A DNA stretch of 59,595 nucleotides from Myxococcota bacterium (GCA_041560255.1 JBFFBT010000002.1:1-59595); one strand, 5' to 3'; counted from the first letter of the stretch, positions 4,348 to 25,580 are shown. Notes: a model not told the origin generated them from the sequence alone. Made by a program: numbers and translations.

Positions 4348-4349
4348 AC

Positions 4350-5717: not shown

Positions 5718-5790
5718 CAATGGATTCATTCATTATGTATACAAAATAGAAAATAAATGCCATGCAATGTAATTTGCTCAAGCATATTGA

Positions 5791-6678: not shown

Positions 6679-6698
6679 GGCCACAAGGAGGAATACAT

Positions 6699-10208: not shown

Positions 10209-10244
10209 TGGCTATGGAGTGCTTCACAAAGAGGGGATCCAAAC

Positions 10245-10409: not shown

Positions 10410-11197
10410 ACGAGTTGTCAAGACGAGGTAATTTATTGAATTATGGTCCATGGTTTTTTGTCCCTGGATCGCCCTTCTTTCAACTTCGGTTGTTTTGTTT
10501 TACGTACGCCGGAGGTAGTTGTAATTTCTACTGTTTCTGGGCAAAACGGTTTCTTGGACGAATAGAGTTATGGGCATTTCAACCGCCTGGCCGTGGTAAT
10601 CGAATGAAGGAAAAGCCCATCCGACGACTCGATGAGTTGGTCGAGGTTATTGTGACATCTATCGATGGTTTCCTAGACTTGCCATTTGTGTTTTTTGGAC
10701 ACAGCCTGGGCTCCCTGATTGCTTTTGAGCTGACTCGACGATTGCGCCTGCGCAATGCAAGACTGCCAGAGCACTTGTTTGTCTCGGCATGTTCTGCACC
10801 ACATTTGGCTCGCAAGCGAAAATCCATACATCTATTGGGTGACGAGGAACTCATTGAATGTATACGAAGCTATGGAGGTACACCTCAGGAAGTGATTGGT
10901 GATCCCGAAATGCTGAAGCTTGTATTACCACTTATCAGGGCCGATTTTGAAGTCTATGAAACATGGAACTATTGTCATGAGACTCCTCTTTCAGTTCCAA
11001 TTACGGTTTTTGGTGGTACTGAGGATGAAATAGCAACAACTGATCTAGCCGCATGGCGTGAGCAGACAAATGTTAAATTTTCAAAGCATATGCTGCCAGG
11101 TGGCCATTTTTTCATTCATTCTGCCGAAAAGCAACTGATTGATATTCTCCAGATGGAAATGAGTGTTTACACAGCCGATATAAAAATCGATAGGTAA
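10406..11197 (+). CDS. Type II (editing) thioesterase
   Basis: RLFCFTYAGGS near the N-terminus, nucleophile elbow GHSLGS, C-terminal GGHFF. About 260 aa, typical of GrsT/TEII proteins in NRPS clusters. Confidence 0.9.
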   Translation: MNELSRRGNLLNYGPWFFVPGSPFFQLRLFCFTYAGGSCNFYCFWAKRFLGRIELWAFQPPGRGNRMKEKPIRRLDELVEVIVTSIDGFLDLPFVFFGHSLGSLIAFELTRRLRLRNARLPEHLFVSACSAPHLARKRKSIHLLGDEELIECIRSYGGTPQEVIGDPEMLKLVLPLIRADFEVYETWNYCHETPLSVPITVFGGTEDEIATTDLAAWREQTNVKFSKHMLPGGHFFIHSAEKQLIDILQMEMSVYTADIKIDR

Positions 11198-11241
11198 ACA
11201 AGACACAACGACCGCCATTAATAAAAGGAAGGAGGTAGTCA

Positions 11242-11496
11242 ATGAGTTATTCAGAAGAAGATACAGCCGTTTACAATGTTGTAGTAAATCACGAAGAGCA
11301 ATATTCGATCTGGCCTGATTACAAAGATATTCCGAATGGTTGGCGTGCAGTTGGTAGAAAAGGCACCAAAGAAGAGTGTCTAGCCTACATTGATCAGGTA
11401 TGGTCGGACATGCGGCCGCTCAGCCTACGCAAACGTATGGAAGAAATGAAATCAGCAACATCAGATTCGCGTTTGGATAAAGATAATCAAAAATAG
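11242..11496 (+). CDS. MbtH-like protein
   Basis: VVVNHEEQYSIWPDYKDIPNGWRAVGRKGTKEECLAYIDQVWSDMRPLSLR carries the three conserved Trp of the MbtH signature. SD GGAGG lies upstream. Confidence 0.93.
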   Translation: MSYSEEDTAVYNVVVNHEEQYSIWPDYKDIPNGWRAVGRKGTKEECLAYIDQVWSDMRPLSLRKRMEEMKSATSDSRLDKDNQK

Positions 11497-11892
11497 AAAA
11501 CGCGATCGAAGTTCTCTGTACTCATCCAACAGATTGCATCTTGGTAGTATCCATTCGGTTGGCGCTATTGATGAATATGATTAGAACAATAAAATTAGTT
11601 CTAGGTTTTATCTCGTCAAATCAGAACTCTTGTTTGATGGAATTGATGTTGATGTTTTGAATTCCGAAAAATAACAATTTTTGTTACTTTTTCATTCGAT
11701 CAATATCATTATCATTGTTGTCCAAAATAAATTGAGATGCATGATTATTACGAAACAACTTGTTGAAATTGAAGCATGTCATGATGACAAAGAATTGTGA
11801 CTCTGAAAACCTATTTTGGACAAGCGTGGATTAATATCATCCTTTTTTCGAAATGATTTTAGGTTGTGTTGATATGCACTTTTTAGCTATTC

Positions 11893-11974: not shown

Positions 11975-13255
11975 ATGGGTAGTGGGATAAAAAGGCGGAT
12001 ATTACTTCTTATATTTTGTTTCGGGGCTGCTGCTGTCATATGGTTTAAGCCCTCCGATATTGGTGGTCCTTATCCTAAGAAGTTTGCTATGTGGAACGAG
12101 AGGTTACGCAGACAATCTCTGGGTGGTGATGTAGCAATTTTGGACTTGGATGCTGTTGACCGAAATATCGAGCTCGTACGTAAAAAAGTCGATCGACGAT
12201 TTGCTTTGCGATTGGTTACCAAATCACTTCCTTCGAAAAACCTCATTAGATATCTGATGGATAAATTGGATACAACGAGACTTATGGTCTTTTCGGAGAG
12301 AAACCTGGTTACCCTGCTTGGTTTGGAGGAACCAATCGATATCATGCTTGGAGTGCCGCTTCCGGTTGCAACGGCCCATAAAATACTGAAGTCAAAACCT
12401 TTAGCTGAGCAGGTAAAATGGTTGATCGATACGCCACGGAGATTGAACGAATATCTTGCGGTTGCATTGCAGATGGATATCAAGCTGAACATCGTCATTG
12501 AGATCGATGTTGGACTGAGAAAGGGAGGGGTCGAGAGCCACAAAGAGCTATGCAAACTGCTTCAGATAATTACAGAAAATCCACAAGAATTGTCTTTTTG
12601 CGGACTGATGGGCTACGATGGCCATGTTCCATTTGCACCATTTTTTATCAGTGAAGATGGTGAGTTTCAAGAAGTACACGAGCGGTACAAGCAAATGGTG
12701 AAGGCTTCTAGGTCTGCATTTCCACGGATTTTTCATTCTGGATTGGTGTTTAATAGCGGAGGCAGTCGGACATATGTTCGTTACGACGCAAGTTTGGTGA
12801 ATACACCGGTGAACGATATTGCATTGGGATCGGTTTTTCTCGCACCTAATTCATTTGATGAACTCATTAACATCGGACATCGACCGGCATCTTTTTTGGC
12901 TTCCGTGGTGCTTAAGAAAAAAACCAGGGGTAAAACTTCTTTTGTCGAGTCGATACAAGACGTTATGGCGATTTGGAATCCTAACCTCCGAGTTTCTTAT
13001 CATTTACAAAGGGGTGGGTTTCCGGGTAAGGTGATCGCGCCGCCCGGGTTGGTGGATAATCCATTGATTCGTAGATCTTCTGGTATTCGAGGGCTTTTCT
13101 GCAATCAGCAGCTTTTATGTGGATCAACCAGTATACGTTTGGAAGAAGGTGATTTTGTGTTTTTTCATCCATGGGAGGCAGATGGATTGCTTTGGTTGGA
13201 CAATATACATGTATTCCGGGGAAGCAGCCTGCTTGATCAATGGAAGACCATTTGA
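11975..13255 (+). CDS. Fold-type III PLP enzyme (alanine-racemase-N-domain / DSD1-like), N-terminally membrane-anchored
   Basis: N-terminal TM segment RRILLLIFCFGAAAVIWF. Barrel-like pattern with candidate PLP Lys in RLVTKSLPS, IEIDVGLRKGG and GLMGYDGH. C-terminal EEGDFVFFHP resembles the small beta-domain of the family. Assignment is by motif only. Confidence 0.6.
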   Translation: MGSGIKRRILLLIFCFGAAAVIWFKPSDIGGPYPKKFAMWNERLRRQSLGGDVAILDLDAVDRNIELVRKKVDRRFALRLVTKSLPSKNLIRYLMDKLDTTRLMVFSERNLVTLLGLEEPIDIMLGVPLPVATAHKILKSKPLAEQVKWLIDTPRRLNEYLAVALQMDIKLNIVIEIDVGLRKGGVESHKELCKLLQIITENPQELSFCGLMGYDGHVPFAPFFISEDGEFQEVHERYKQMVKASRSAFPRIFHSGLVFNSGGSRTYVRYDASLVNTPVNDIALGSVFLAPNSFDELINIGHRPASFLASVVLKKKTRGKTSFVESIQDVMAIWNPNLRVSYHLQRGGFPGKVIAPPGLVDNPLIRRSSGIRGLFCNQQLLCGSTSIRLEEGDFVFFHPWEADGLLWLDNIHVFRGSSLLDQWKTI

Positions 13256-13564: not shown

Positions 13565-13715
13565 GCTCCTTTCAGGTTGCTTGATCGTAGGCGGTTTTTG
13601 CCAGGCTTGTCACGTAAAAAGCGGTTTTTGATCATCACCATTGAAAGCCGGATTTTTCTCGCATACATTGTCCATGGTCGTTTGGTTGGATAAAAATCCC
13701 GCCCAAGGAGATGCT

Positions 13716-14825
13716 ATGTTTACAACCCCGACACTTTTGTTGGATGAGGCCAAATGCAAAGCCAACATTCAAAGAATGGCTGAAAAAGCCCAAAAGCACC
13801 ATATCGGCTTCAGGCCGCATTTTAAAACCCATCAATCCCTGGATGTCGGTCAATGGTTCAAGCAGGCCGGTGTGACCCAGATCACGGTATCGTCTTTCGA
13901 GATGGCCCATTATTTCTCTTCTCAATGGAAGGATATCACGGTTGCCTTCCCGGTCAATGTTTTGGAGATTGATAGGATCAACGCATTGGCAAAAAGGATC
14001 AAGCTCAATGTGTTGGTCGAATCCCTAGAAAGCGTCGATTTTCTCAAAACTCACCTGGATGCCGAGATTGGATTTTTTATCAAGATCGATGTGGGATACC
14101 ATCGTACCGGAGTCCAGCCTGACGACACCGATCTGTTGGACACAATACTGCAGGCGGCCGATGGGGCGGACCGATTGCGTTTCTGCGGTTTTTTAGGACA
14201 TGCCGGCCATGCTTACAAGTGTACCCACAGGGATGATGTCATGGCGATACATAAACAGAGTCAACAAATCATGATCGCACTGAAAAAAAGATATAACGAG
14301 CGCTATCCCGGATTGGCGATCTCGTTGGGAGATACGCCTACCTGCAGCCTGGCGGATGATTTTACGGGCATTGACGAGATTCGTCCGGGCAACTTTGCTT
14401 TATATGATCTCATGCAGCATCAGATCGGATCGTGTGAAATCGAAAACATTGCTGTGGCGATGAGGTGCCCGATTGTGGCCCTGCATCCCGAGCGCCGCGA
14501 CATGGTGATCTACGGCGGGGGAGTTCACTTTTCCAAAGAACAGTTGAAAACCCTCCAGGATACAGTAGTGTTCGGCCGGGTGGTCGAATCATTGGACAGT
14601 GGGGGATGGGGCGATGTGGTCAAAGACATGTATGTAAAAAACCTGTCTCAAGAGCATGGGATTGTAACGGGTCCGACGGTGGAGCTACAAAAGTACAAGG
14701 TTGGAGACCGAATCACGGTATTACCCGTGCATGCTTGTTTGACGGCCGATTTGATGAAACGGTATGTTTTGACGGGCGATCTCGAGGCCATCTTCATGAT
14801 GGGCTCCAAACACCAATGTCTTTGA
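13716..14825 (+). CDS. D-TA/DSD1-family fold-type III PLP enzyme (D-serine dehydratase / D-threonine aldolase-like)
   Basis: GFRPHFKTHQS (PLP-Lys motif), IKIDVGYHRTG, GFLGHAGH, and C-terminal GDRITVLPVHACLT. ATG 13716 lies 5 nt after AAGGAG (13705-13710) and is preferred over the track start at 13641. Confidence 0.8.
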   Translation: MFTTPTLLLDEAKCKANIQRMAEKAQKHHIGFRPHFKTHQSLDVGQWFKQAGVTQITVSSFEMAHYFSSQWKDITVAFPVNVLEIDRINALAKRIKLNVLVESLESVDFLKTHLDAEIGFFIKIDVGYHRTGVQPDDTDLLDTILQAADGADRLRFCGFLGHAGHAYKCTHRDDVMAIHKQSQQIMIALKKRYNERYPGLAISLGDTPTCSLADDFTGIDEIRPGNFALYDLMQHQIGSCEIENIAVAMRCPIVALHPERRDMVIYGGGVHFSKEQLKTLQDTVVFGRVVESLDSGGWGDVVKDMYVKNLSQEHGIVTGPTVELQKYKVGDRITVLPVHACLTADLMKRYVLTGDLEAIFMMGSKHQCL

Positions 14826-14839
14826 GATGCCGGTGGCTG

Positions 14840-14868
14840 GTAAGCGTATACCCCGGGTGCACGCTTAC
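14840..14868. terminator. Hairpin between convergent genes (candidate bidirectional terminator)
   Basis: GTAAGCGT (14840-14847) pairs with ACGCTTAC (14861-14868) across a 13-nt loop. It lies between the stops at 14825 (+) and 14874 (-). There is no clear U-tract. Confidence 0.3.
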
Positions 14869-14873
14869 GGCGG

Positions 14874-15683
14874 CTATATCCTGACCAGCGTGATGCACAA
14901 ATTGTGCTTATTCAAGATCGTCCACCAAACCGGGATGGTTTGTTGCCTGATCACGGCTTGGATTTGGTTCCAACGGTTGCCGGGTTGAGATACGTCCTCA
15001 TTGGGGATCAACCGGATGATTTTGGTGTTTTCCATCAGGCCGGTTTTGATGGCTTTCAGGATGGACTCTTTGGCGCTCCATATGAGGGTGGCGGTCAAGG
15101 CTTGGTGGGGGCTTGCTTGTGATTGAATCCAATTCCGTTCTTCGGGGGTATAAAAGTCTTCCAACATGGATGCGTTTTTGGGCGCTATGATCTCGATGTC
15201 GGCTCCCAGGTTGCCAAGGTTGTCGCGGCAAACGGCCGAAAAAGCCAACTCATCCCTATGGGAGATGGTCAGGGATACGGGTAGGTTTCGGCCGTGTCTG
15301 TCTTGTAGCTGCGGCCAGCCGTTGGGATTTCTGAGGATCTCGAAATCATTGGATGCTTGGATCGAAAGGTCGAGGGGAGTTGCGCGTTGCATGAGCAAAT
15401 ACTTGGCGGTCGCCCTGCCCAGCATCCATTGACGATGGCGTTCCGGGTGCCGATAGCGACGCCCGGATTGAATTTCTGTTGCGGTGAGATAACAACCCGA
15501 GGCAAGCCCGGGTCCGGCTTGGGTCAACACCCAATGGATATCGTCCGGCGGGTCGTTCGGGGTGGCTTCCGGGTGATGCTCTAGGATGGTGACTGCCGCT
15601 TGTAGAGCATTGTCGATACCACCGATCGGGTGATTCACCCGATCGGTGGCTTCGAGCAGGTTCGGTTTATACGATTTGGACAT
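14874..15683 (-). CDS. Sfp-type 4'-phosphopantetheinyl transferase
   Basis: LGADIEII and WSAKESILKA motifs. ATG 15683 (MSKSYKPN...) lies 1 nt after the PKS stop. The longer track ORF to 15911 would overlap the PKS C-terminus. Confidence 0.88.
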   Translation of the reverse strand: MSKSYKPNLLEATDRVNHPIGGIDNALQAAVTILEHHPEATPNDPPDDIHWVLTQAGPGLASGCYLTATEIQSGRRYRHPERHRQWMLGRATAKYLLMQRATPLDLSIQASNDFEILRNPNGWPQLQDRHGRNLPVSLTISHRDELAFSAVCRDNLGNLGADIEIIAPKNASMLEDFYTPEERNWIQSQASPHQALTATLIWSAKESILKAIKTGLMENTKIIRLIPNEDVSQPGNRWNQIQAVIRQQTIPVWWTILNKHNLCITLVRI

Positions 15684-15684
15684 C

Positions 15685-18600
15685 CTATTTGTTTTCGGAT
15701 TCGGGCACCAGCTCTTTGCGGACGTCTTCGGGTAACTTGTTGGGCAGCGGCGAGGTTTGGTATCCGTTGAGCTCCAAAAGCACAAATCCGCGCTCGTCCA
15801 CGACCTGGATGCCGTATTGGGTATGACCGTTGATCCGCTCGGGCACCACCCAGGCAGCGATTCTGCCCGTAGTCCCTTCGGGCAGCTTGTGCAACTTGAG
15901 CTTACGAACACCCGCCGGCAGGCCGAGCTTTTGGCTCTTTTGAGCTTCTACGATTCCGGCTGCCTGGAATGCCAACTCGGTAAACATGGGATGTGCAGAC
16001 AGTTCGCCCGGATTGGCCATGGGAGGCACCTCCGTACCGGACTGCATCCAGCCGGCCATACGTCCGTCTTGGCTCTGAGTTACCTTTTCGAGCACCTGGA
16101 AGCTGGGTCCGTGGAAGTATGCTTGGTAAATGGCTTCCTTACGAATACCTTTGCTGATTCCGTCTCCGGGAGGCTCGGTCTTGACGATCACCGAGTCTTG
16201 ATCCAATCGGATTTTTCCGTGGAAGTGTCTGGTCACCTGGACTTTACCCACCACCAAATTGCGTTGGGTTTCCATGGTGGCAAGAAACACTCTGCCCAGA
16301 TCATCCCAAGTGGGCAGCAGCCTTACTGTAGCAGTTCGAGGCTCGTTTCGGTAAAACTTGAGAGGAGCTTCAAACGCCAAATCTTCTACCTCCACCACGG
16401 CAAGATCCGGACGTAGGAGGCTGGCTGCTTCGGCGAAGGTTTCCACCGCCATGACGCCCGGTAATACCGCCGTACCGTCGATGCGGTGATCCTCGAGAAA
16501 ACGATCCCGATTTGGATCGAAGGTCACTTCGAGCCTGAGACCGTCTGCGATGGTCCAGTCGATTGCTTTTCCGAGCAATGGGTATCGTGCGGGATTTTCG
16601 GCGAGCCGATCATGGAGTATCTGTAGGTCGGCGCCTTCCGCCACCAGTCCTTTGTACAGGATTCCCAAAGAGCGGGCGACAACCAGCTCTCCACTGAAAC
16701 CCGATGCAAATACGCGCCGGACCGAGGTGCAGCCTTCCTCGAGCGGGATCAAATTGATGCCGGCCGCGGCCAGCTGCGCCGGTACCGAGCCGCGTGTCGC
16801 CATGCCTCGCCCGGCCCATCCACTATATGCCAGGGTAAATACCTGCAAGCCCGGGCGGGCCTTTTTGAGATAGGTCGAACACTTGCTCATAAAATCATTG
16901 GCCGCCGAGTAATCCGTTTGTCCCAGGTTTCCAAATCTGCCTGCCACCGATCCGAACAGCATCAATCCTTTGAGCGCAACATTGGTGGTTGCAGCCAAGA
17001 GAGTGTTCAAGCCGATCGATTTCACTCCAAAGATGAGATCAAATGATTCTGGTTTTTTGCGGGCAATACCCTGGCTGTGTTCCAATCCGGCAGCGTGCAT
17101 AATGAGGTCGATACGCCCGTGCGCCTGCATAATCTTGTTGATGGCTTCATCGACAGCTTGTTGGTTCGTGACATCCAGGCTTACGTGATGGGCCTGTGCG
17201 CCGGTGTTGCGGATGGTGTGTAGCGCTTCGAGCGCGGCGCTTTTTCTTTCCACTTCTCGGATGGCTTTGTCCACCAACACCGGAGTCACCCGTTCGCCCT
17301 GTTCACGAAGCCGGTTCGTGAGGTTGGCTTTCAAGGTCTCCCGATCGGTGGTGAGCAGTATAATGTCCGGATCATCATTGGAAGGAGTCGGGGTGAGATC
17401 CGCCAAATAATAGGTACCGCCTATGTTTTTTGCAAGATCCGTAACGATTTTACCAACGATGTCGCCTGCGCCTCCGGTAACCAAAACCACGGGATCTTTT
17501 TCCGGAAGGCTGCCGATTCCGGATAACGCCTGGTCGGCTTCAATGGGCTTGTATTCGCTCAAACCCACCGCCCAACGACGTTCACCGACTCTGCCTACTT
17601 CAACAACACCTCGGTCGCTTTCAACTTCTTCAATCAGGGCGGAAGCTATGGTTTGTGCTTCGGCGTCGACCGGGAAATCGACGACTTTACATAAAGTCTC
17701 CGGCCACTCTTGGGCCAAGGTTTTGACAAACCCGGTGGTGGCGCCGCTGGCGGGATCCTGCGAGCCTACTCCGGGCCGCAATCCGAGATGGCCTCCCATT
17801 TGGGTGGCGGCTACAAAATAGGTGCCCGGTTGGTTGGACAGCACTCCGTCGAGTGCTTTGGCGACCCTAAACGGAAGGCGCGCGCGCAAATCGAGTGCTC
17901 GTTTCCATGCGGCTTTATCCCGGGTTTCCGGCAAGACCGCTTTTTGGCAAGCCGTAAGCAGCCAAACACCTTTGGGCGCCTGTTGGGAGGCAAGCTCGGC
18001 GATTTGCGAGGTCACCGAATCCGGGTCACCGGACGCGTCGATCCATACGGGCTGGGCACCTCGGTGTTTGAGTGCGGATTCGAGCGCCTGGACTACGGGT
18101 GATGGTTCGGACACGATGAAACATTGGCTTCGTACTTCCACGCCGGTCGGCAGACAGTCGCCGGCTGCCGGCCTTCCCACCAGTACAGAGGCAAGATAAC
18201 GCACCGATTCGGATTCGACCGGAATGCTGGATAAGGGCAACACGTGGTCTTCACCCGCTTCCTCTTCGGTTGCATCCTGAGATTCGGCCATTGGAGTGTT
18301 TTGGGCTTGGGCGGTTTGGGCTTGGGTGGCGTGCGCGGCCGATTTTTCCTCCGCAAAACGGATGATGTGAGCCAGGGTGGGATAATCCGAAAGCTTGAGA
18401 TCATCCTGTTTTGGGATGTTGAAAGAAGTCCTGATCTCCGAAAACAGCTCGGCCTGTTTGACCGTGTCGATGCCCAGGTCGGCTTCCAGGTCGAGGTTGA
18501 CGTCCAACATGTCGGAGGGATAGCCGGTTTTTTCAGAGACGAGAGAAAGGATCTTAGCTGTGATGTCATCGAGGCTCATCTGCGAAGGCACCTGGACGGG

Positions 18601-21600
18601 AGCCTGAGCAGGCGGCGCTACCACGGCCGTTTGGGAGACGGGTTGCACCTGTTCTGGCTGAGCTGTCTGGGCTGCCTCCGGTTGTATAGCTGTGGCTGCC
18701 GGTTGAGGTCGGGATACTTCGGGCTCTACATCTTTTGTTTTTGGCGCGGGCGCAACCACGCCTTGCCGGGCTATGAGCTCGGATTTGGTTGCGGGCGCGG
18801 ATTCGATGAATGCATCATCGCTTTTTACTCTCAAGGTGTTGTGGATCACTTCCAGCTCGGCTTGGGGTTGGTTCGCAATCCCTTCGATCCAAGCTTGGTA
18901 CACGGCCTGATCATGAATACGGCTTGCGCCGTTTTCGATTCTCTCTGAGACGGTCATGGCCACCTGAGATCCGAATCCGGCCGACAATCGCACCGCATAG
19001 CGGACATTTTGCCGGCCTCCTTTTGACAGGTTGAGTTTTCCCAAATCCGGGTCTTCTTCTCGATGGTTGGGGATGGGCGGGATGACTTGGCGCTCCAACA
19101 TCCGTACGCCCAAAGCATCTTCGATGCCCACACCCATGGGGTGACCGGTGTATCCCTTGGTATTGGCGATCACAATATCGTTCACCTGTTGCCCGAACGT
19201 CTTCCGTAACGCATGTACTTCAGCCGCCGCGCTGCCGCCGCGGGCAGGAGTGTAGGTTTCATGCGAGATGAAGACGGTTTCCTTGGCCATCTGGGTTCTG
19301 TCTATACCGTAGTCGGTTTCGACCTGTTTGATCATGTTATCCATGCAGTTGCTGATGTGATCCACGTCCAGGCGCGTGCCGTGGAAAGCGCTGTTTGCAA
19401 TCACGGTGCCTAAAATCCTGGTCAAGCCATGCATACCCCGTTTTTTGGTCTCTTGTGCGTCCTCTACGACCAAACCGACTGCGCCCATGCCGGTAATCAT
19501 ACCGTTTCTTCGCCGATCGAAAGGAATGGCGGCCTTGGTGAGATCGGATTCGTTGGTTACCGCTCCGGTGGCGAACAATCCGCCAACCAGCCAAGGAGCC
19601 AGGTTTTCGTTGGTGATATCGTCCGATCCGACCACCAAGACTCTGCGGCAACGGCCCAATCGGATCCAGTCGGTAGCCAGAGCGAGGGCCAATGTGGTCG
19701 AAGCGCATGCGCTGTTGACACCGACATTCGGTCCCCGGGCTCCGATCAGCTCGGCCAATTGGGCATGTCCCATGTTGAGCGCCCGGAAGATAAATTTGCG
19801 ATCCAAGCTGAAAGGCTCACCACGCTCTTGTTCGAGCGCTTCGATTCTTTCGCGTATGGCGTGCAAAGGTCCGATGCTGTCGGCCAGGTGTTTGAGCTCC
19901 GCAATGCGTGACGCGTAAATCTCGTCTCGGTTGTACCGGTTGATTTCTTGTACGAACTGATCGTATCCAGGGAAAGCCGATGCGAAGATGATACCGGTTT
20001 CATCGGCGATTTGGGCCGGAAGCCTAAATCCGATCGGCAACTTTTTGCCCGAAGATACGGTCTTGTGGTTCATGACCAAAGGAATTCCGGCATCTTTGAG
20101 AGCCAGCAACCCGGCGCCGATGGCCAATTGGGTGGTGATGTCCAAGCTGCGGACTTTTTCGTCCGGAATACCGAACTCTTGTGTCAGATCGAAACGCCCC
20201 CTGCGGGCCGAAAGCCGCACTACTTGATCGGGGTCGTCGATCACTTCGAAATAGGGTCCGCCCGGCGCATCTTTGATGAGTCGTACGATTCGTTGGCCTG
20301 CCAAACGCCGGCGGTTTTCCTCCGGGATACTATCGATGCCGATGGCTCCGTTGAGGATGTTGTCGATGTTGGCGTCGTCGAACACGGCATGATTGGTGCC
20401 CGGCAGACCGAGGCTGGCTCCACTGATGACCAAATCGACAGGCTTAGCTTTGGTTTGAGGCTCGGATACCGGCTCGATGGATGGAATCGATACCTGCGCC
20501 GCGGGCGGGTTGCTCTGCATGCTTCCCAGGGTTTTGCAGGCCGCCAAGGAGTTACAGAATGACGGCCAATCTCCGACTTTCGGATTGTTGGTGCATACCG
20601 ATATGACCCTCGGATCATCCAAAACATCCAACACCAGGTTGGCCAGCACCCTTTTGGCGCCCACTTCAACGAACAACCGCACACCGACTTTGTGCATTTC
20701 CTGCAGGGTCTCGACGAAACGAACCGGAGACGCCACTTGTTTGGCCAAACGATCCAGATTGGCCGAGATGGCGCTGGGACTTGGATCGTAGGGTTTTGCG
20801 TCCAGGTTGGCAATCAGCGGTATGCGCGGGGGGTGAAAATCAATCTTGGCCAGTAACGCCCGCAGTGGTTTGGTTGCGGGTGCCACAATATGCGAATGAA
20901 AAGCATGGGATACCTGCAGTTGAACCGCACGAATTCCCTTGTCCTTGAAACGCGCCATGGCTTCGTCCATGGCGACCGTGCCGCCGGCGATAACGGTTTG
21001 GTTGTGGCTGTTGAAATTGGCGGGCGCTACGTCTTGGATGTCTTGAATGACCTCCATGATTTTATCCAGCGGTGCAAGGACGGCAGCCATTTTACCGGGA
21101 TCCCGAACGTTGACGGAAGACATCTCTCTTGCCCGGGCGCTGGCTGCATGGATGGCTTCTTTAAATGACAGCATACCGGCTACCACCAGGGCGGAGTATT
21201 CACCCAGGCTGTGTCCTGCTACCATATCCGGGACCACTCCGTGATGTTCGAGCAACCTTGCGATGGCGATATCCGCCGCCAGCATGGCGGGCTGGCAGAT
21301 GTTGGTGTCCCTGAGCTTCTCGACGTTTTCGGGCGTATCGTCGGTGTAAATATAATCGGTCAGAGGCTTGCCCAAGAGGGGTGCCATGTATTCGTCGGCT
21401 TCAGCGAAGGTATCGGCCACGATCGGTTCGGTGGCCCGAAGCTCTTTGAGCATATCGATATACTGCGAACCTTGACCCGGTAGCAAGAATGCGATCTTGA
21501 CCGGATCCGAATCACGGTAAAAAACCCCTTGGGCCGCCATGGCGCGCCAGGGTTTGTATCCATCCGATGCGAGAGCCACAAGTGCGCGTTTACCACGTTC

Positions 21601-23268
21601 TTGCCGCTCGGTTTCGCTTCCGTATTCGATGACCAGACATTGGGGTTTCGAACGCACCTCGTCCTGAGGTGTCTCGGGATCTTGCTCGCCTAAAGCCGCC
21701 AATTTCGCTTCCAGGGCCTTTCGGATTTCTTCCCGGTTGTTGCCGCCGACTGCAAGCATGCGGCGATCGGGACGGTTGGTTTGCATCTCAACAGAAGAAG
21801 TTTGCATGTTGTTGCCTTTCGGGACGTCGAATACCTTGGATTTGTTTCCATTGGGTCGGTATTCGGTAAGCAATGCATGAAAATTGGTACCACCAAATCC
21901 AAACGAGGATACGGCAGCGGTTCTGGGGGTGCCGTTATGTAATTCCCACGGAACGGCCTGGGTGGGTACATACAGAGGAGAATCGTCAAAAGGAATGTTT
22001 GGATTCGGGGTTTCAAAATTGATCGATCCCGGAATGGTTTTGGTGCTGAGGGCAAAAACGGTTTTCAACAAAGAAGCCGCGCCCGCAGCGCTTTTGAGGT
22101 GACCGATTTGGGACTTGATGGACCCCATGGCGATGGATTTGTTTTTGGCTCCGGCGGCCTTGAAGAACTCGTTCGCCAAATTACCTTCCACCCGGTCTCC
22201 CGCGATGGTCGAGGTCCCGTGGGCCTCCAGCAAGGTGACGTCACAAGGGGAGATTCCGGCGCTCTCATAGGCGCGGCGCATGGCCAGGCGTTGCCCTTCC
22301 GGGTTGGGGGCGGTGATGCCTTTGCCCTTGCCGTCGCTGGAGCTGCCGATACTTTTCAGTACGGCATAAATCTTGTCACCGTCTCTTTCAGCGTCTTCCA
22401 AACGTTTCAACAAGAGGATTCCGCAACCTTCACCCATCACGAACCCATTGGCGCGTTTGTCGAACGGACAGCTGAGATCTCCGGACAGCGCGCCGATCTT
22501 GCAGAACTTGACGAAGCTGTGGGGTGACATGGAGGAATCCGAGCCGCCGGTAAGCACCATGTCATAGCGATGTTCAATCAAGCCGGTTACTGCCATTTCT
22601 AAGGCGGCCAATGATGACGCGCAGGCAGCGTCCGCAGTGTAGTTGGGTCCCCTGAGTCCGAAAACATTGGCAACCCGCCCGGCGATGACATTGGATAACT
22701 CACCGGGCATGCTGTCTTCAGTAATGGGAGGCAGCTCTTCGATGACGGTCGTGGTAAACTCTTTGATGATTCGATTTCCAGCTTCTTCGGAAAGAGCTTG
22801 AAATGCCGGGGTTGATTTGAGCTGTCGAATATAGCGGGGAAGATAAACCCGGTGATTGGTAATAAACTGCAACTCACCCGCCATGGCATTGCCGATGATG
22901 ACGGCCATGCGATCGCGATCGAACTCTTTTTGATCGTATTGGGCGTCCTGGATGGCTTGGCGCGAAGCTTCGACCGCCCATTTTTGAACGTTGTCCATGG
23001 ACTGGGATGTCTTTGGAGGAATACGGTATTTCAAACAATCGAATTGGAAGTCGGTGATCCAGGATCCGATTTTGGAATAGGTCTTGTCCGGCGCCTTGGG
23101 ATCAGGATCATAATGATCTTCCGTTTTCCATCGGTTTTCAGGTACTTCCCGGATACTGTTTTTGCCTGAAAGGATGTTTTGCCAGAAACTCTTGGCGTCA
23201 TTGGCGTCGGGCATTACAGCGCCCAGTCCGATTATCGCCACTCCTGTGTGGTTGTTTTTCGTACTCAT
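15685..23268 (-). CDS. Type I polyketide/secondary-lipid synthase, single polypeptide KS-AT-KS-ACP-KR-DH (PfaA-like KS1)
   Basis: RBS GGAG at 23275-23278 and ATG at 23268. Residue numbers below follow the 2535-aa track translation. KS1 aa 17-478 (nt 21859-23244): DAACASS Cys224, EAHGTST, GHLKSAAG, and a PfaA-style PGELSNVIAGRVANVF segment. AT aa 598-890 (nt 20623-21501): GHSLGE, HAFH. KS2 aa 952-1452 (nt 18937-20439): NSACAST with Cys codon 19705-19707, SHETYTP, GHPMGVG. A P/A/Q-rich linker follows. ACP-like aa 1573-1650 (nt 18343-18576): DLGIDTVKQAEL. KR (nt 16798-17496): TGGAGDIVG, YSAAN. PKS-type DH (nt 15748-16575): LEDHRIDGTAVLPG, YFHGPSFQ. Stop TAG at 15685-15687. No TE or R domain. Confidence 0.95.
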   Translation of the reverse strand: MSTKNNHTGVAIIGLGAVMPDANDAKSFWQNILSGKNSIREVPENRWKTEDHYDPDPKAPDKTYSKIGSWITDFQFDCLKYRIPPKTSQSMDNVQKWAVEASRQAIQDAQYDQKEFDRDRMAVIIGNAMAGELQFITNHRVYLPRYIRQLKSTPAFQALSEEAGNRIIKEFTTTVIEELPPITEDSMPGELSNVIAGRVANVFGLRGPNYTADAACASSLAALEMAVTGLIEHRYDMVLTGGSDSSMSPHSFVKFCKIGALSGDLSCPFDKRANGFVMGEGCGILLLKRLEDAERDGDKIYAVLKSIGSSSDGKGKGITAPNPEGQRLAMRRAYESAGISPCDVTLLEAHGTSTIAGDRVEGNLANEFFKAAGAKNKSIAMGSIKSQIGHLKSAAGAASLLKTVFALSTKTIPGSINFETPNPNIPFDDSPLYVPTQAVPWELHNGTPRTAAVSSFGFGGTNFHALLTEYRPNGNKSKVFDVPKGNNMQTSSVEMQTNRPDRRMLAVGGNNREEIRKALEAKLAALGEQDPETPQDEVRSKPQCLVIEYGSETERQERGKRALVALASDGYKPWRAMAAQGVFYRDSDPVKIAFLLPGQGSQYIDMLKELRATEPIVADTFAEADEYMAPLLGKPLTDYIYTDDTPENVEKLRDTNICQPAMLAADIAIARLLEHHGVVPDMVAGHSLGEYSALVVAGMLSFKEAIHAASARAREMSSVNVRDPGKMAAVLAPLDKIMEVIQDIQDVAPANFNSHNQTVIAGGTVAMDEAMARFKDKGIRAVQLQVSHAFHSHIVAPATKPLRALLAKIDFHPPRIPLIANLDAKPYDPSPSAISANLDRLAKQVASPVRFVETLQEMHKVGVRLFVEVGAKRVLANLVLDVLDDPRVISVCTNNPKVGDWPSFCNSLAACKTLGSMQSNPPAAQVSIPSIEPVSEPQTKAKPVDLVISGASLGLPGTNHAVFDDANIDNILNGAIGIDSIPEENRRRLAGQRIVRLIKDAPGGPYFEVIDDPDQVVRLSARRGRFDLTQEFGIPDEKVRSLDITTQLAIGAGLLALKDAGIPLVMNHKTVSSGKKLPIGFRLPAQIADETGIIFASAFPGYDQFVQEINRYNRDEIYASRIAELKHLADSIGPLHAIRERIEALEQERGEPFSLDRKFIFRALNMGHAQLAELIGARGPNVGVNSACASTTLALALATDWIRLGRCRRVLVVGSDDITNENLAPWLVGGLFATGAVTNESDLTKAAIPFDRRRNGMITGMGAVGLVVEDAQETKKRGMHGLTRILGTVIANSAFHGTRLDVDHISNCMDNMIKQVETDYGIDRTQMAKETVFISHETYTPARGGSAAAEVHALRKTFGQQVNDIVIANTKGYTGHPMGVGIEDALGVRMLERQVIPPIPNHREEDPDLGKLNLSKGGRQNVRYAVRLSAGFGSQVAMTVSERIENGASRIHDQAVYQAWIEGIANQPQAELEVIHNTLRVKSDDAFIESAPATKSELIARQGVVAPAPKTKDVEPEVSRPQPAATAIQPEAAQTAQPEQVQPVSQTAVVAPPAQAPVQVPSQMSLDDITAKILSLVSEKTGYPSDMLDVNLDLEADLGIDTVKQAELFSEIRTSFNIPKQDDLKLSDYPTLAHIIRFAEEKSAAHATQAQTAQAQNTPMAESQDATEEEAGEDHVLPLSSIPVESESVRYLASVLVGRPAAGDCLPTGVEVRSQCFIVSEPSPVVQALESALKHRGAQPVWIDASGDPDSVTSQIAELASQQAPKGVWLLTACQKAVLPETRDKAAWKRALDLRARLPFRVAKALDGVLSNQPGTYFVAATQMGGHLGLRPGVGSQDPASGATTGFVKTLAQEWPETLCKVVDFPVDAEAQTIASALIEEVESDRGVVEVGRVGERRWAVGLSEYKPIEADQALSGIGSLPEKDPVVLVTGGAGDIVGKIVTDLAKNIGGTYYLADLTPTPSNDDPDIILLTTDRETLKANLTNRLREQGERVTPVLVDKAIREVERKSAALEALHTIRNTGAQAHHVSLDVTNQQAVDEAINKIMQAHGRIDLIMHAAGLEHSQGIARKKPESFDLIFGVKSIGLNTLLAATTNVALKGLMLFGSVAGRFGNLGQTDYSAANDFMSKCSTYLKKARPGLQVFTLAYSGWAGRGMATRGSVPAQLAAAGINLIPLEEGCTSVRRVFASGFSGELVVARSLGILYKGLVAEGADLQILHDRLAENPARYPLLGKAIDWTIADGLRLEVTFDPNRDRFLEDHRIDGTAVLPGVMAVETFAEAASLLRPDLAVVEVEDLAFEAPLKFYRNEPRTATVRLLPTWDDLGRVFLATMETQRNLVVGKVQVTRHFHGKIRLDQDSVIVKTEPPGDGISKGIRKEAIYQAYFHGPSFQVLEKVTQSQDGRMAGWMQSGTEVPPMANPGELSAHPMFTELAFQAAGIVEAQKSQKLGLPAGVRKLKLHKLPEGTTGRIAAWVVPERINGHTQYGIQVVDERGFVLLELNGYQTSPLPNKLPEDVRKELVPESENK

Positions 23269-23278
23269 GCCGATCTCC

Positions 23279-24931
23279 TCAATTCGTTGCAACGGTTTGT
23301 GCTACAGAGTTCAGGTCGTCAAGCATTCCAACCATGCAGTCGTTGATGCCGGTGAGATTGATGTTTTGTTCGAAACTCCTGAGTGAACCGTCGGTCAGCG
23401 GGCTCCCGTTTGCCTGGGCTCCTGCTGCCAAAAACATGCTTTGTGCGCTGATCTCTTGTGCGGTCTGCCGGGCCCAAAGGCGGCTCATGGATGTGAGTGT
23501 CTGGATATCATATCGGGATGAGTCCGGATTGCCCTTGGACACTTTACGGCAAAAGGATGCGGCCACTTCGAGATGCGCGATCAACAGCCCCAGGGTGAAC
23601 AACACATGCTGGTTGCGGGTCAGTTTGGCCTTACGGCAGACTTCCATGAATTCGGCGAGCGCCCAAGCGGCACGTGCACAGGTTTTGGCGCCCGTACCAG
23701 GGGTTTTTTGTTCCAATTCTTCCATCTCGCGGGCGAGATTTTTAAAGTGCTCGCCCCGGCTCAATAGATGGGATCGCCAGCGATCTTGAGCGATGGTGCG
23801 TTGGCATATTTCAGAAGTGCCTTCGTAGATGCAGGTGATACGAACGTCTCGTTTGAGCTTTTCCACTTCGTATGCGTTGATATATCCATAGCCTCCGTGG
23901 GCTTGGATGGCCGCTTCGGCGGCTGCATTGCCTGCTTCGGTGGCGGTCAATTTGGCCACCGCACCGTCTACGGCCAAATCCAAACCACCCTGGTCGAGTT
24001 GATCGGATACGAATTCGATATGAGACCGGGCGGCTTCGAGAGCCACCGCGTGCGGAGCAATGAGTTTATGGGTCCAACCGGGCTTTTCACACAGCAAAGA
24101 GCCTCCTTGGTAACGCTCTTTGCCGTAGAGAATGGCCTTATTCAACGCGCTGTTTCCACAACCCAAACCAAAGGCTGCTACCATGACCCGGGTGTAGCCG
24201 AAAACCTTGGCGGCCTGAGAAAGACCTTGTCCTTCGACTCCACCGATGAGGTTTTCCACCGGGATGCGGACGCTCTCTAATGATATCGGGGTTGTATTGG
24301 ATGCCCGGATTCCGTGTTTGACCTCATGCGCGCCCGGAACGAATCCCTCGGTGCCGCGTTCGACCACAAAAAACGAGGGGCCTCCGGGTGTTACCGCCAG
24401 AACCGTATACAAATCGGCAATGCCTCCGTTGGTGATGAACTGTTTGTTGCCGTTGATTTCATAGGCTACGGTTTTGCCGTTTTCGATTATCGGATTGGCC
24501 TTGGTGCGGATGTGGGCCAGGTCGGAGCCGGCCGAAGGTTCCGTCACCGCGTAAGCCACCACCAGGCCCTCCTCTGCGACTCTTCTCATCCAGCGGTTTT
24601 TTTGCTCTTCGGTTCCGCCAACCCGCAAGGGATCGGTTCCGAGAGATACGCCCAACAAGGAAGTTGCGATACCAAGGTCTACCGATGCGACAGCTTCTGA
24701 AATCCTGAATATATCTTTGGCCCCTCCGCCCAAACCTCCATATGCGGTGGGTATAAAAGCCAAGTGTATGCCGATCTCGGGGCCCAGTAACTCTCGGATG
24801 AGATCCTCGGGGCAGTTGTCTTCATGATCGTTGCCGAGAAGGGTGTCGAGATCCATACGGCGTTTGGCGAAACTTTTCAGGGTGGATAGAATGAGCTCGA
24901 GCTCTTCTTGACTCATTTCTGGTTGTATCAT
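23279..24931 (-). CDS. Acyl-CoA dehydrogenase, long form with a C-terminal helical extension of roughly 170 aa
   Basis: AVTEPSAGSDL and IYEGTSEICQRTIA (catalytic Glu context). ATG 24931 (MIQPEMSQ...) lies 9 nt after AGGAGG (complement of 24941-24946). The track start at 25135 adds an implausible basic leader. Stop TGA at 23279-23281, 10 nt before the PKS ATG. Confidence 0.88.
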   Translation of the reverse strand: MIQPEMSQEELELILSTLKSFAKRRMDLDTLLGNDHEDNCPEDLIRELLGPEIGIHLAFIPTAYGGLGGGAKDIFRISEAVASVDLGIATSLLGVSLGTDPLRVGGTEEQKNRWMRRVAEEGLVVAYAVTEPSAGSDLAHIRTKANPIIENGKTVAYEINGNKQFITNGGIADLYTVLAVTPGGPSFFVVERGTEGFVPGAHEVKHGIRASNTTPISLESVRIPVENLIGGVEGQGLSQAAKVFGYTRVMVAAFGLGCGNSALNKAILYGKERYQGGSLLCEKPGWTHKLIAPHAVALEAARSHIEFVSDQLDQGGLDLAVDGAVAKLTATEAGNAAAEAAIQAHGGYGYINAYEVEKLKRDVRITCIYEGTSEICQRTIAQDRWRSHLLSRGEHFKNLAREMEELEQKTPGTGAKTCARAAWALAEFMEVCRKAKLTRNQHVLFTLGLLIAHLEVAASFCRKVSKGNPDSSRYDIQTLTSMSRLWARQTAQEISAQSMFLAAGAQANGSPLTDGSLRSFEQNINLTGINDCMVGMLDDLNSVAQTVATN

Positions 24932-25263
24932 TTGATTGTGCCTCCTAAGTTTGTTTGAACATTCAGCTCGATTGCGCTCCAATCGGCTGAGTTTTGTATG
25001 CGATTGATTCGATTCGGGGTGAATTCTGAGTGTGCCGTGTATTGCGTCATAGTATTTCCTCTGCCTTCCCCGATAAGATATGTATCTTTCTCGCTTCCCA
25101 TGTGGGTGCATCCCTAGATGCAAATACCTTGCCAAATTTGTAACTTATTGATTTGTATGATTGTAATTGTGCGTCATGAAGAGTTTAGCTCAGAACATGC
25201 CAATAAAAGTGCGTATTTGATTTTGCTGGTGCAAGCAGCAAAGATCGGCAGTTGTACAAAAAT

Positions 25264-25284
25264 AATCAATTATTACAATTGATT
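25264..25284. promoter_or_regulatory. Perfect inverted repeat AATCAATT-N5-AATTGATT (candidate operator) in a divergent intergenic region
   Basis: Read directly: 25264-25271 and 25277-25284 are exact reverse complements. The site lies about 330 bp upstream of the ACAD-PKS-PPTase operon start. Confidence 0.3.
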
Positions 25285-25580
25285 ACAAAATATCTGATCG
25301 TCACTTGAGGGTGTTGTAGGGCGCTTGCAGGTCAAGGGTCAGGTGCGAAAAAGAAGTGGCATATGTAACTATATAATATTGAATGATTATTGTTTTTTCT
25401 GGGATTGTGTGGGCCGTGCGGGTTACATCTGTTCCTGGAGATACCTCTCAGGGGCCAGCCTCACCCAGAGGAGATTGAACCCATACTATGGTCTTTACCT
25501 CGTGTAAGCGTTCACTCGGCTACATATTTTCGATTTTGTGCCGTCTATATGTTTAGAGGGGGAAATGTTGGGAGAAAGCC

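What the first reader, a model, noticed from the sequence alone, without database searches (positions are those of the whole stretch)
15685..24931. ACAD -> KS-AT-KS-ACP-KR-DH megasynthase -> PPTase operon with a non-canonical, release-domain-less architecture
Seen in sequence:
- Three minus-strand genes are joined by 10-nt and 1-nt gaps: a long acyl-CoA dehydrogenase, a 2,527-aa synthase and an Sfp-type PPTase.
- The synthase has two full ketosynthase domains, each with an intact Cys-His-His set (C224/H358/H398 and C1196/H1344/H1384 in the track numbering).
- The two KS domains bracket a single malonyl-type AT (GHSLGE...HAFH).
- One carrier domain, a KR and a PKS-type DH follow. There is no ER, TE, reductase or condensation release domain.

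Established knowledge:
- KS1 carries the PGxLxNVIxGRxxN insert typical of PfaA / secondary-lipid synthases.
- PfaA is KS-MAT-ACPn-KR-DH. The KS-CLF pair sits on a separate protein, and that CLF lacks the Cys.
- Enediyne PKSE is KS-AT-ACP-KR-DH-PPT.
- None of these has AT followed by a second catalytically intact KS (with an unusual HETYT His motif).

Inference: this is an iterative secondary-lipid or polyene-type synthase of a family I cannot match to any characterised product. The ACAD may act in trans as an enoyl-reducing or desaturating partner.
Basis: partly seen in the sequence, partly recalled or inferred. Interest (0 to 1): 0.78.

Follow-up and report, generated by a model that had tools for sequence, protein, structure and literature searches.

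The report
Widespread PfaA-like lipid synthase operon
This is a real three-gene operon for a giant fatty-acid/polyketide-type enzyme of a family that was catalogued in 2011 and occurs in hundreds of bacterial species but whose product is still unknown; it is not a new architecture, yet every member carries two oddities worth testing: a threonine where all known carrier proteins have serine, and an acyl-CoA-dehydrogenase-type partner that seems to replace the usual enoyl reductase.

Summary
Three translationally coupled minus-strand genes encode a 550-aa VLCAD-like acyl-CoA dehydrogenase (ACAD), a 2,527-aa KS1-MAT-KS2-ACP-KR-DH synthase and a divergent Sfp-type PPTase. The novelty claim is not correct. 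This is the 'Type R' secondary-lipid synthase of Shulse & Allen 2011 (KS-MAT-'CLF'-ACPn-KR plus PPTase). I found it in at least 569 species genomes. No product was found in the searched literature.

New points:
- KS2 is not a CLF. Cys/His/Lys/His are invariant in 121/121 homologues, and its model matches FabF best.
- The ACAD sits directly upstream in 59/69 informative loci, sometimes preceded by EtfBA and an Fe-S oxidoreductase.
- The seven loci that lack the ACAD all carry a PfaD-type enoyl reductase instead, and none has both. The ACAD is therefore most likely the trans enoyl reductase.
- Acetyl-CoA carboxylase is often linked.
- Every carrier domain examined has Thr at the phosphopantetheine site (DLG[IV]DTVKQAE), with no conserved Ser in the domain. 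This plausibly explains the dedicated PPTase.

Best reading: a self-contained iterative reducing fatty-acyl synthase. The window holds a compact single-ACP member.

The parts
24941..24946 (-). Shine-Dalgarno AGGAGG, 9 nt before the ACAD ATG. The roughly 650-nt AT-rich intergenic region 24932-25580 upstream presumably holds the operon promoter, which was not mapped.
   Evidence: Read directly from the sequence. The sigma-70 consensus scan was not informative.
23279..24931 (-). VLCAD-like FAD acyl-thioester dehydrogenase (550 aa). The ACAD core is aa 9-382 (23786-24907). The catalytic-base motif YEGTSEI has E370 at 23822-23824. A C-terminal extension of about 170 aa follows. Proposed role: ETF-coupled trans enoyl-ACP reductase.
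   Evidence: Pfam ACAD N/M/C domains. PDB MCAD/Bcd-type hits at 1e-57 with YEGT aligned. NCBIfam Bacillus-FadE model covers 2-497. Directly upstream of the synthase in 59/69 informative loci. Mutually exclusive with a PfaD-type ER.
15685..23268 (-). 2,527-aa iterative synthase KS1-MAT-KS2-ACP-KR-DH, a Type R pfaA homologue.
21832..23241 (-). KS1, PfaA-type. C216 (22621-22623), H350, H390. PGELSNVIAGRVAN motif at 22666-22707.
   Evidence: Pfam ketoacyl-synt and Ketoacyl-synt_C. TIGR02813 covers 8-897. Motifs.
20578..21489 (-). Malonyl-type acyltransferase. GHSLGE at 21199-21216 and HAFH at 20896-20907.
   Evidence: Pfam Acyl_transf_1 and NCBIfam FabD. Motifs.
18934..20439 (-). KS2, a FabF-like second ketosynthase with a helical insertion of about 50 aa. 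C1188 (19705-19707), H1336 in the invariant HETYTPARGGSA (19228-19263), K1371, H1376 (19141-19143).
   Evidence: PDB FabF 1e-22. NCBIfam FabF 137 bits. Catalytic residues invariant in 121/121. AF2 model pLDDT 83.8. Foldseek top 50 are FabF, related KAS or mitochondrial KS, plus actinorhodin KS 1tqy_A at rank 46; no CLF chain.
18355..18555 (-). Single carrier (ACP) domain. The attachment-site motif DLGIDTVKQAE is at 18448-18480, with Thr1602 (codon ACG, 18463-18465) in place of the canonical Ser.
   Evidence: Pfam PP-binding. Thr aligns to the DS(L/I) Ser of solved ACPs. Thr in 213/213 motifs in loci. Among 588 regex-selected motif hits giving 580 distinct ACP domains in the protein set, Thr is 100% and no Ser is conserved elsewhere in the domain.
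16816..17322 (-). Ketoreductase catalytic subdomain (YSAAN at 16897-16911). The structural subdomain lies upstream of it.
   Evidence: Pfam KR and adh_short. TIGR02813 positions 1995-2342 match.
15733..16581 (-). PKS-type double-hotdog dehydratase. HRIDGTAVLP at 16459-16488.
   Evidence: Pfam PKS_DH_N and PS-DH. Motif.
14874..15683 (-). Divergent two-lobed Sfp-type 4'-phosphopantetheinyl transferase (269 aa as called; homologues align from about aa 49). GADIE at 15192-15206 and WSAKES at 15063-15080.
   Evidence: Pfam ACPS. HetI scores only 42 bits against a cutoff of 370. No Sfp-type PDB hit at E<1. Found downstream of the synthase in 52/63 informative loci.

Best explanation
The locus is a compact, single-ACP member of the widespread but biochemically uncharacterised 'Type R' PfaA-like secondary-lipid synthase family. 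The three genes are translationally coupled.

Proposed mechanism:
1. The dedicated, divergent PPTase attaches phosphopantetheine to Thr1602 of the carrier domain. This is inferred. The family never has Ser there, and housekeeping AcpS-type enzymes are not expected to accept Thr.
2. The malonyl-specific AT loads malonyl units.
3. Two condensing domains extend the chain iteratively: the PfaA-type KS1 and the FabF-like KS2, both with intact catalytic residues. They probably divide the cycles by chain length or intermediate type, as the PfaA and PfaC KSs do in PUFA synthases. This division is inferred.
4. KR and DH give trans-2-enoyl-ACP.
5. The VLCAD-like flavoprotein encoded just upstream reduces the enoyl thioester in trans, with electrons delivered through ETF. 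It takes the place of the PfaD enoyl reductase. This is inferred from gene displacement and ETF linkage.

The product would be a long, largely saturated or only partly unsaturated fatty-acyl chain. No release enzyme is encoded in the operon, so the chain must be handed to an unlinked acyltransferase or thioesterase. The frequent linkage to acetyl-CoA carboxylase, and the tandem ACPs elsewhere in the family, point to a bulk lipid rather than a trace metabolite.
For: Anatomy and coupling.

Family identity:
- Thousands of homologues share the same order.
- KS2 scores 550-850 bits in all 120 listed homologues.
- At least 569 species genomes were found with KS2-specific patterns.
- The published description of Type R matches in domain order, downstream PPTase, ACC insertion and phyla.

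KS2 is active-like:
- C1188/H1336/K1371/H1376 are invariant in 121/121.
- Its closest sequence and structure matches are FabF, not CLF.

ACAD as enoyl reductase:
- It is directly upstream in 59/69 informative loci at 47-73% identity over its full length.
- The catalytic Glu is retained.
- EtfB-EtfA lies immediately upstream of it in 8-10 loci from Chloroflexota, Acidobacteriota and one Verrucomicrobiia MAG. A 4Fe-4S/CCG oxidoreductase accompanies them in 6 loci.
- All seven ACAD-less loci with downstream sequence carry a PfaD_N+NMO enoyl reductase beside the PPTase.
- Among 57 loci informative on both sides, 49 have the ACAD only, 7 have PfaD only, 0 have both and 1 has neither (Fisher p = 3e-8).

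ACC linkage: about 36 loci.

Thr carrier:
-.
- E. coli ACP S36T cannot be phosphopantetheinylated (PMC3340395).
- The NRPS carrier in the same window has a normal GGDSIL motif.
- The PPTase is very divergent.
Against: - No biochemical data exist for any family member in the literature I could search.
- The seven PfaD-type loci are all Anaerolineae. The displacement may therefore be a single evolutionary event, and the Fisher p overstates independence.
- ACADs normally run oxidatively. An Fe-S/CCG-ETF module is typical of beta-oxidation electron flow to quinone, so the direction of the reaction is not shown.
- The ETF could not be typed as bifurcating or not.
- No ETF genes lie in this window.
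- No release enzyme is identified.
- One locus (L056) has neither an ACAD nor PfaD nearby.
- Phosphopantetheinylation of Thr has no precedent that I know of or could find.
- KS2 has an altered HETYT...RGGSA motif in place of HGTGT...GD, so its chemistry may differ from ordinary elongation.
Confidence: 0.55

Rival explanations
1. Non-reducing (polyene-type) synthase. KS/KR/DH cycles run without enoyl reduction, as in enediyne PKSE or aryl-polyene systems. The ACAD is only a tailoring enzyme, for example a single desaturation or a hand-off step.
For: The megasynthase has no cis ER domain and carries a PKSE-like KS-AT-...-ACP-KR-DH order plus a PPTase. ACADs usually oxidise.
Against: A PfaD-type ER replaces the ACAD in the ACAD-less clade, which implies that an enoyl-reduction function is required. 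ACC linkage and tandem ACPs suggest a bulk fatty-acyl product. No PKSE-associated thioesterase or enediyne cassette is present.
Confidence: 0.12
2. The ACAD acts as a FabX-like 'backtracking' acyl-ACP dehydrogenase/isomerase. It introduces or repositions double bonds (2-enoyl to 3-enoyl), and electrons flow out through ETF and the Fe-S oxidoreductase to quinone. Enoyl reduction is done by a host ER.
For: The ETF plus Fe-S/CCG module upstream of the ACAD is the usual oxidative electron route. H. pylori FabX is a precedent for a flavoprotein dehydrogenase/isomerase acting on acyl-ACP in unsaturated fatty acid synthesis (PMC8626469, seen). The family lacks FabA-type DH/isomerase domains.
Against: Complementary distribution with PfaD, a reductase, argues for equivalence to an ER. 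The rival needs an unlinked ER able to act on a Thr-linked type I ACP.
Confidence: 0.15
3. KS2 is not an elongating KS. It serves as a chain-length or priming partner of KS1 (a CLF-like role despite keeping the Cys), as a malonyl decarboxylase, or as the chain-release or transfer catalyst in this TE-less system.
For: Shulse & Allen annotated it as CLF. The invariant HETYTPARGGSA differs from the canonical HGTGT..GD motif. No release domain is present.
Against: The Cys/His/Lys/His set is invariant in 121/121, whereas CLFs by definition lack the Cys. The nearest sequence and structure matches are elongating FabF enzymes. PUFA synthases already provide a precedent for two working KSs.
Confidence: 0.2
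4. The synthase supplies a lipid tail to the neighbouring NRPS cluster (window 19-11197), making a hybrid lipopeptide.
For: An NRPS A-T-C-TE gene lies within 4-15 kb, with MFS, 3-hydroxyacyl-CoA dehydrogenase, ACAD, AMP-ligase, type II TE and MbtH-like ORFs.
Against: The NRPS cluster is on the opposite strand and is separated by two unrelated PLP-enzyme genes. Its GC content differs (40-48% against 53-56%). The NRPS genes are absent beside the closest relatives L001, L002 and L007, which keep only the triad.
Confidence: 0.05
5. The Thr-bearing carrier domains are not phosphopantetheinylated, either because they are degenerate or because they work by another chemistry.
For: Ser to Thr blocks modification of E. 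coli ACP (PMC3340395). I found no report of a Thr-linked phosphopantetheine.
Against: These are the only carriers in the synthase, and their motif is under extreme conservation: 100% Thr in 580 distinct domains, using all four ACN codons that sit one mutation from Ser codons, yet never Ser. A PPTase gene is co-conserved next to them. The KS, AT, KR and DH domains all look active.
Confidence: 0.03

Closest known systems
Type R secondary lipid synthase (Shulse & Allen 2011, PLoS One 6:e20146; Koribacter, Solibacter, Elusimicrobium, Roseiflexus)
   Same: A single pfaA homologue with a KS-type domain between MAT and ACP. KR (and DH) lie at the C-terminus. A PPTase gene is directly downstream, and ACC is sometimes inserted. 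It is spread across Acidobacteria and Chloroflexi, and its product is unknown.
   Different: The window's protein has 1 ACP instead of 3-6, and its near relatives have 1-3. The paper calls the middle domain a CLF, but it keeps the full catalytic set. The paper does not mention the upstream ACAD, the ETF genes, the PfaD alternative or the Thr attachment site. I did not compare sequences directly with the five genomes named in the paper.
Canonical PUFA synthase PfaABCD(E)
   Same: KS1-MAT and KR-DH match the PfaA model. Both use an iterative mechanism, two KS activities acting on the same ACPs, a trans-acting enoyl reductase and a dedicated PPTase.
   Different: The second KS is fused into the PfaA-like protein and is FabF-like. 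There is no CLF, no PfaB and no FabA-type DH/isomerase domain. The ER is an ACAD/ETF flavoprotein in most members. The carrier site is Thr rather than Ser. TIGR02813 scores below its cutoff.
Enediyne PKSE (KS-AT-ACP-KR-DH-PPTase)
   Same: Iterative, TE-less KS-AT-...-ACP-KR-DH order with its own PPTase activity.
   Different: PKSE has no second KS, has the PPTase fused, makes an unreduced polyene and comes with a conserved thioesterase and enediyne cassette. None of these is seen here.
Reductive ACAD/ETF systems (butyryl-CoA dehydrogenase-EtfAB, caffeyl-CoA reductase CarCDE, acryloyl-CoA reductase)
   Same: An ACAD-fold flavoprotein reduces a 2-enoyl thioester with electrons from ETF. The window's ACAD scores best against the AcrC model and hits Bcd and CarC structures.
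   Different: Those enzymes act on free CoA thioesters in fermentations. Here the presumed substrate is tethered to a type I carrier domain, and the ACAD has a VLCAD-like C-terminal extension.

Membership tests
Type R secondary lipid synthase | One pfaA homologue with order KS-MAT-(KS-like 'CLF')-ACP-KR | tested here: met
   Pfam, NCBIfam and PDB domain mapping. The same order is seen in P0008, P0065 and P0070.
Type R secondary lipid synthase | 3-6 tandem ACP domains | tested here: not met
   The window has one ACP motif. Its closest relatives have 1-3, and the main family has 3-6. I read this as a reduced subclade rather than exclusion from the family.
Type R secondary lipid synthase | PPTase gene immediately downstream (ACC may intervene) | tested here: met
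   The gap in the window is 1 nt. A PPTase is found in 52/63 informative loci: 41 within 600 nt of the synthase, 10 after a fused ACC of about 5.5 kb, and 1 (L026) at 1.1 kb.
Type R secondary lipid synthase | Sequence or phylogenetic grouping with the named Type R genomes (Koribacter, Solibacter, Elusimicrobium, Roseiflexus) | not tested
   Those sequences were not retrieved. Relatives from the same phyla (Sulfotelmatobacter, Bryobacterales, Oscillochloris, Kouleothrix, Viridilinea) are 44-53% identical.
Canonical PUFA synthase (PfaA-D) | PfaA equivalog score at or above the TIGR02813 cutoff | tested here: not met
   895.5 bits against a cutoff of 1010.1.
Canonical PUFA synthase (PfaA-D) | PfaC with KS-CLF and FabA-type DH domains, plus PfaB and the PfaD ER in the cluster | tested here: not met
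   None is present in the window. A PfaD-type ER occurs only in the Anaerolineae subclade of the family.
Chain-length factor (CLF) | KS-fold domain lacking the active-site Cys | tested here: not met
   C1188 is invariant in 121/121, together with H1336, K1371 and H1376. No CLF chain appears among the top 50 structural matches.
Enediyne PKSE | KS-AT-ACP-KR-DH with a fused C-terminal PPTase and no second KS, plus an associated TE and enediyne cassette | tested here: not met
   A second KS is present, the PPTase is a separate gene and there are no cassette genes.
Carrier proteins (PP-binding, phosphopantetheine attachment site) | Conserved Ser in the (D/L)G(x)DS(L/I) motif at the start of helix II | tested here: not met
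   Thr1602 aligns to that Ser. Thr is 100% in 580 distinct family ACP domains, with no other conserved Ser. The fold and the rest of the motif are kept.
Acyl-CoA dehydrogenase superfamily | Three-domain ACAD fold with a catalytic Glu (YEGT motif) | tested here: met
   Pfam N/M/C domains. E370 in YEGTSEI aligns to the MCAD-type catalytic base. FAD binding and substrate were not testable.

The most novel reading that the evidence does not exclude
The carrier domains of this whole family are phosphopantetheinylated on threonine by their co-encoded, highly divergent PPTase. This would be a natural Thr-linked phosphopantetheine, making the system orthogonal to the cell's Ser-specific PPTases. The family would also be a self-contained type-I-like fatty-acyl synthase whose enoyl reductase is an ETF-dependent acyl-CoA-dehydrogenase-fold flavoprotein, interchangeable in evolution with PfaD.
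Probability: 0.45. Interest if true: 0.82.

Novelty: new member of a known kind. Interest (0 to 1): 0.6.

Why it matters
Type R synthases occur in hundreds of species of soil, sludge, sediment and hot-spring bacteria (Acidobacteriota, Chloroflexota, Myxococcota, Actinomycetota and others). Their lipid product has been an open question since 2011.

This window offers a minimal 10-kb version with one ACP and three genes, well suited to heterologous expression.

Two points would be of general interest if confirmed:
- A carrier protein that uses Thr instead of the universal Ser, together with a PPTase that accepts it. This bears on PPTase specificity, on orthogonal tagging tools and on annotation rules that require Ser.
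- An ACAD/ETF pair working as the enoyl reductase of a megasynthase. This would add a redox partner type to FAS/PKS enzymology and link lipid synthesis to the quinone/ETF pool.

The result also corrects the 'CLF' label for the second KS.

Tried and rejected
- The first AlphaFold run of KS2, with a 9-sequence alignment, gave pLDDT 53 and was discarded.
A 25-sequence alignment then worked.
- Typing the linked ETF as bifurcating or non-bifurcating by nearest PDB relatives was ambiguous. The alpha subunit is nearest C. difficile EtfA, and the beta subunit is nearest Methylophilus ETF.
- The sigma-70 promoter and terminator scan was uninformative.
- No tRNA or Rfam features are present.
- Ten literature searches found only Shulse & Allen 2011 for this domain order. 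They found no characterised product and no report of a Thr attachment site. Subscription-only papers are not covered.
- The hybrid PKS-NRPS-PUFA preprint (10.1101/2025.10.24.682833) concerns other architectures, whose ACPs have the conserved Ser.
- A link to the adjacent NRPS cluster was considered and rejected because the adjacency is not conserved.
- A proper KS2 phylogeny against PfaC KS/CLF and HglC/D was not possible, because those sequences could not be fetched. I relied on catalytic residues, HMM matches and fold matches instead.
- The window's organism could not be named. Its nearest relatives are Myxococcales/'Deltaproteobacteria' MAGs at about 65% identity.

Full report
**1. Observation**

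The window carries three tightly packed minus-strand genes.
- An ACAD at 23279-24931. Its ATG is preceded by AGGAGG.
- A 2,527-aa synthase at 15685-23268. Its ATG lies 10 nt after the ACAD stop codon, and the gap contains GGAG.
- A PPTase at 14874-15683. Its ATG lies 1 nt after the synthase stop codon.

Pfam and NCBIfam place the synthase domains as KS1 (10-479), a malonyl-type AT (594-897; GHSLGE and HAFH), one carrier domain (1572-1638), KR (1983-2151) and a PKS-type DH (2230-2512). No ER, TE, R or C domain is found.

The region 944-1445 is a second KS.
- Pfam barely sees it.
- It matches FabF structures at 1e-22.
- It matches the FabF equivalog at 137 bits.

In 2,527-aa numbering the sets are C216/H350/H390 for KS1 and C1188/H1336/H1376 for KS2.

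**2. The architecture is not unique**

A protein search returned thousands of homologues.
- The closest are 55-66% identical and 2,400-2,680 aa long.
- A large family of about 3,000-3,200 aa is 44-48% identical through KS1-AT-KS2-ACP.
- KS2 is present at 550-850 bits in all 120 listed homologues.

- They fall in Chloroflexota, Acidobacteriota, Myxococcota, Actinomycetota (Acidimicrobiia), Gemmatimonadota and other phyla.
- A cultured actinomycete, Nonomuraea gerenzanensis, has ACAD-synthase-ACC-PPTase.

Shulse & Allen 2011 described this family as the 'Type R' secondary lipid synthase.
- It is one pfaA homologue, KS-MAT-CLF-ACP(3-6)-KR, followed by a PPTase.
- ACC lies between the two genes in Koribacter.
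- The product was unknown (PMC3098273).

Searching for the domain-order strings returned only that paper. None of ten searches found a characterised product. The 'no characterised product' claim stands as far as I could check.

**3. KS2 is not a CLF**

- Across 121 sequences, C1188, H1336, K1371 and H1376 are invariant. H1336 sits inside an invariant SHETYTPARGGSA.
- A good AlphaFold model was obtained (pLDDT 83.8).
- Its top structural matches are FabF and related KAS or mitochondrial KS enzymes (TM about 0.8 on the target).
- The actinorhodin KS is the first type II PKS hit (1tqy_A, rank 46).
- No CLF chain appears in the top 50.
- The model shows an inserted helical hairpin.
- Two working KSs acting on shared ACPs is what PUFA synthases do (established knowledge). 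The altered His motif leaves room for a different role.

**4. The ACAD**

It is a complete ACAD fold.
- It keeps the MCAD-type catalytic Glu (YEGTSEI, E370).
- It has a VLCAD/Bacillus-FadE-like C-terminal extension.

In 85 related loci:
- It lies directly upstream of the synthase in 59 of 69 informative cases.
- In 8-10 loci from at least two phyla, EtfB and EtfA sit immediately upstream of it.
- A 4Fe-4S/CCG oxidoreductase precedes them in six loci.

The ACAD-less loci are the telling case.
- All seven with downstream sequence are Anaerolineae.
- All seven carry a PfaD-type enoyl reductase (PfaD_N + NMO) next to the PPTase.
- Among 57 loci informative on both sides, 49 have the ACAD only, 7 have PfaD only, none has both and one has neither (Fisher p = 3e-8).

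The PfaD set may reflect a single evolutionary event, so the statistic overstates independence. Even so, complementary distribution is the classic signature of non-orthologous displacement. I therefore take the ACAD, working with ETF, to be the system's trans enoyl reductase. The direction of catalysis is inferred, not shown. ACADs do run reductively in Bcd-Etf, CarCDE and acryloyl-CoA reductase (established knowledge).

**5. Acetyl-CoA carboxylase**

ACC, either split or as a fused 1,880-aa protein, is linked in about 36 loci. Most members also have 3-6 tandem ACPs. Both features suggest a high-flux fatty-acyl product.

**6. Threonine carrier site**

The window's ACP motif is DLGIDTVKQAE. Thr1602 aligns to the phosphopantetheinylated Ser of solved ACPs.

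Thr is universal in the family.
- A broad motif scan of the protein set gave 587 Thr, 8 Ala and 3 Ser. At least some of the non-Thr hits lie outside ACP domains.
- A stricter motif scan of the genome loci gave 213/213 Thr, using all four ACN codons.
- In 580 distinct ACP domains, Thr is 100% at this position, and no Ser is conserved anywhere in the domain.

Supporting context:
- The NRPS carrier in the same window has the usual GGDSIL.
- E. coli ACP S36T cannot be modified (PMC3340395).
- The co-conserved PPTase is so divergent that no Sfp-type structure matches it at E<1.
- I found no report of such carriers.

The simplest reading is a Thr-linked phosphopantetheine installed by a dedicated PPTase. 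This also explains why that gene travels with the synthase. It is inference and needs mass spectrometry.

**7. Context and rivals**

The neighbouring NRPS cluster (19-11197, plus strand) is not conserved next to relatives and differs in GC content, so a hybrid pathway is unlikely.

The remaining rivals are:
- a polyene synthase;
- a FabX-like dehydrogenase/isomerase role for the ACAD;
- a non-elongating KS2.

Each is less well supported than the main model but not excluded. No release enzyme is conserved near the cassette.

**8. Verdict**

This is a real, intact operon and a compact member of a known but uncharacterised family. Interest is moderate to high because of the family-wide Thr carrier site and the ACAD/PfaD displacement, not because of the architecture itself.

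Noticed in passing
window 18463-18465 (Thr1602 codon) and all family loci: The carrier domain has Thr instead of the universal Ser at the phosphopantetheine site. This holds for every ACP of every family member examined.
   Followed up: yes
L037:15874-17532(-), L053:16267-17961(-), also L019, L033, L049, L052, L055: Anaerolineae members of the family lack the upstream ACAD and carry a PfaD-type enoyl reductase next to the PPTase instead. The two are mutually exclusive.
   Followed up: yes
L062:1169-5154(+), likewise L029, L039, L043, L046, L063, L068, L071, L075, L076: EtfB-EtfA genes sit directly upstream of the ACAD, and in six loci a 700-aa 4Fe-4S/CCG oxidoreductase precedes them. Whether the ETF is of the bifurcating type could not be decided.
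   Followed up: partly
window 19-11197 (+): A separate NRPS cluster runs off the window start. It comprises A-T-C-TE (1442 aa), an MFS exporter, a 3-hydroxyacyl-CoA dehydrogenase, a small carrier-protein ORF in about 6680-6983, a second ACAD (6983-8092), an AMP-ligase (8040-10208) and a type II thioesterase (10406-11197). From memory, the dehydrogenase/ACAD/carrier set resembles hydroxymalonyl- or aminomalonyl-ACP extender-unit cassettes.
   Followed up: partly
window about 11200-11500 (+): An unannotated short ORF has an MbtH-like sequence (…[26 protein letters not shown]…) just after the type II thioesterase.
   Followed up: no
window 11975-13255 and 13641-14825 (+): Two paralogous alanine-racemase-N / D-serine-dehydratase-like PLP enzymes lie between the NRPS cluster and the PPTase.
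   Followed up: no
window 32425-33372 (-): A protein combines a Somatomedin-B domain with a rhodanese domain, an unusual pairing for a bacterium.
   Followed up: no
window 14000-24000 versus flanks: The synthase operon is 53-56% GC. The NRPS side is 40-48% and the other side about 50%. This is a compositional step consistent with, but not proof of, horizontal acquisition.
   Followed up: no
L086 (NZ_LT559118.1 5987732-6013372): Nonomuraea gerenzanensis carries ACAD-synthase (one Thr-ACP)-fused ACC-PPTase. The record is filed as 'plasmid I' in PLSDB but is 11.85 Mb, so it is evidently the chromosome, and it is almost unannotated there.
   Followed up: partly
L044 (JBFKTF010000024.1), L022, L038: Family members sit on contigs binned as Thermoplasmatota archaeon, Acidithiobacillales and Burkholderiaceae. 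These are short contigs and probably mis-binned rather than true hosts.
   Followed up: no
L056 (uncultured Myxococcales): This is the only informative locus with neither an ACAD nor a PfaD-type reductase within 10 kb of the synthase.
   Followed up: no
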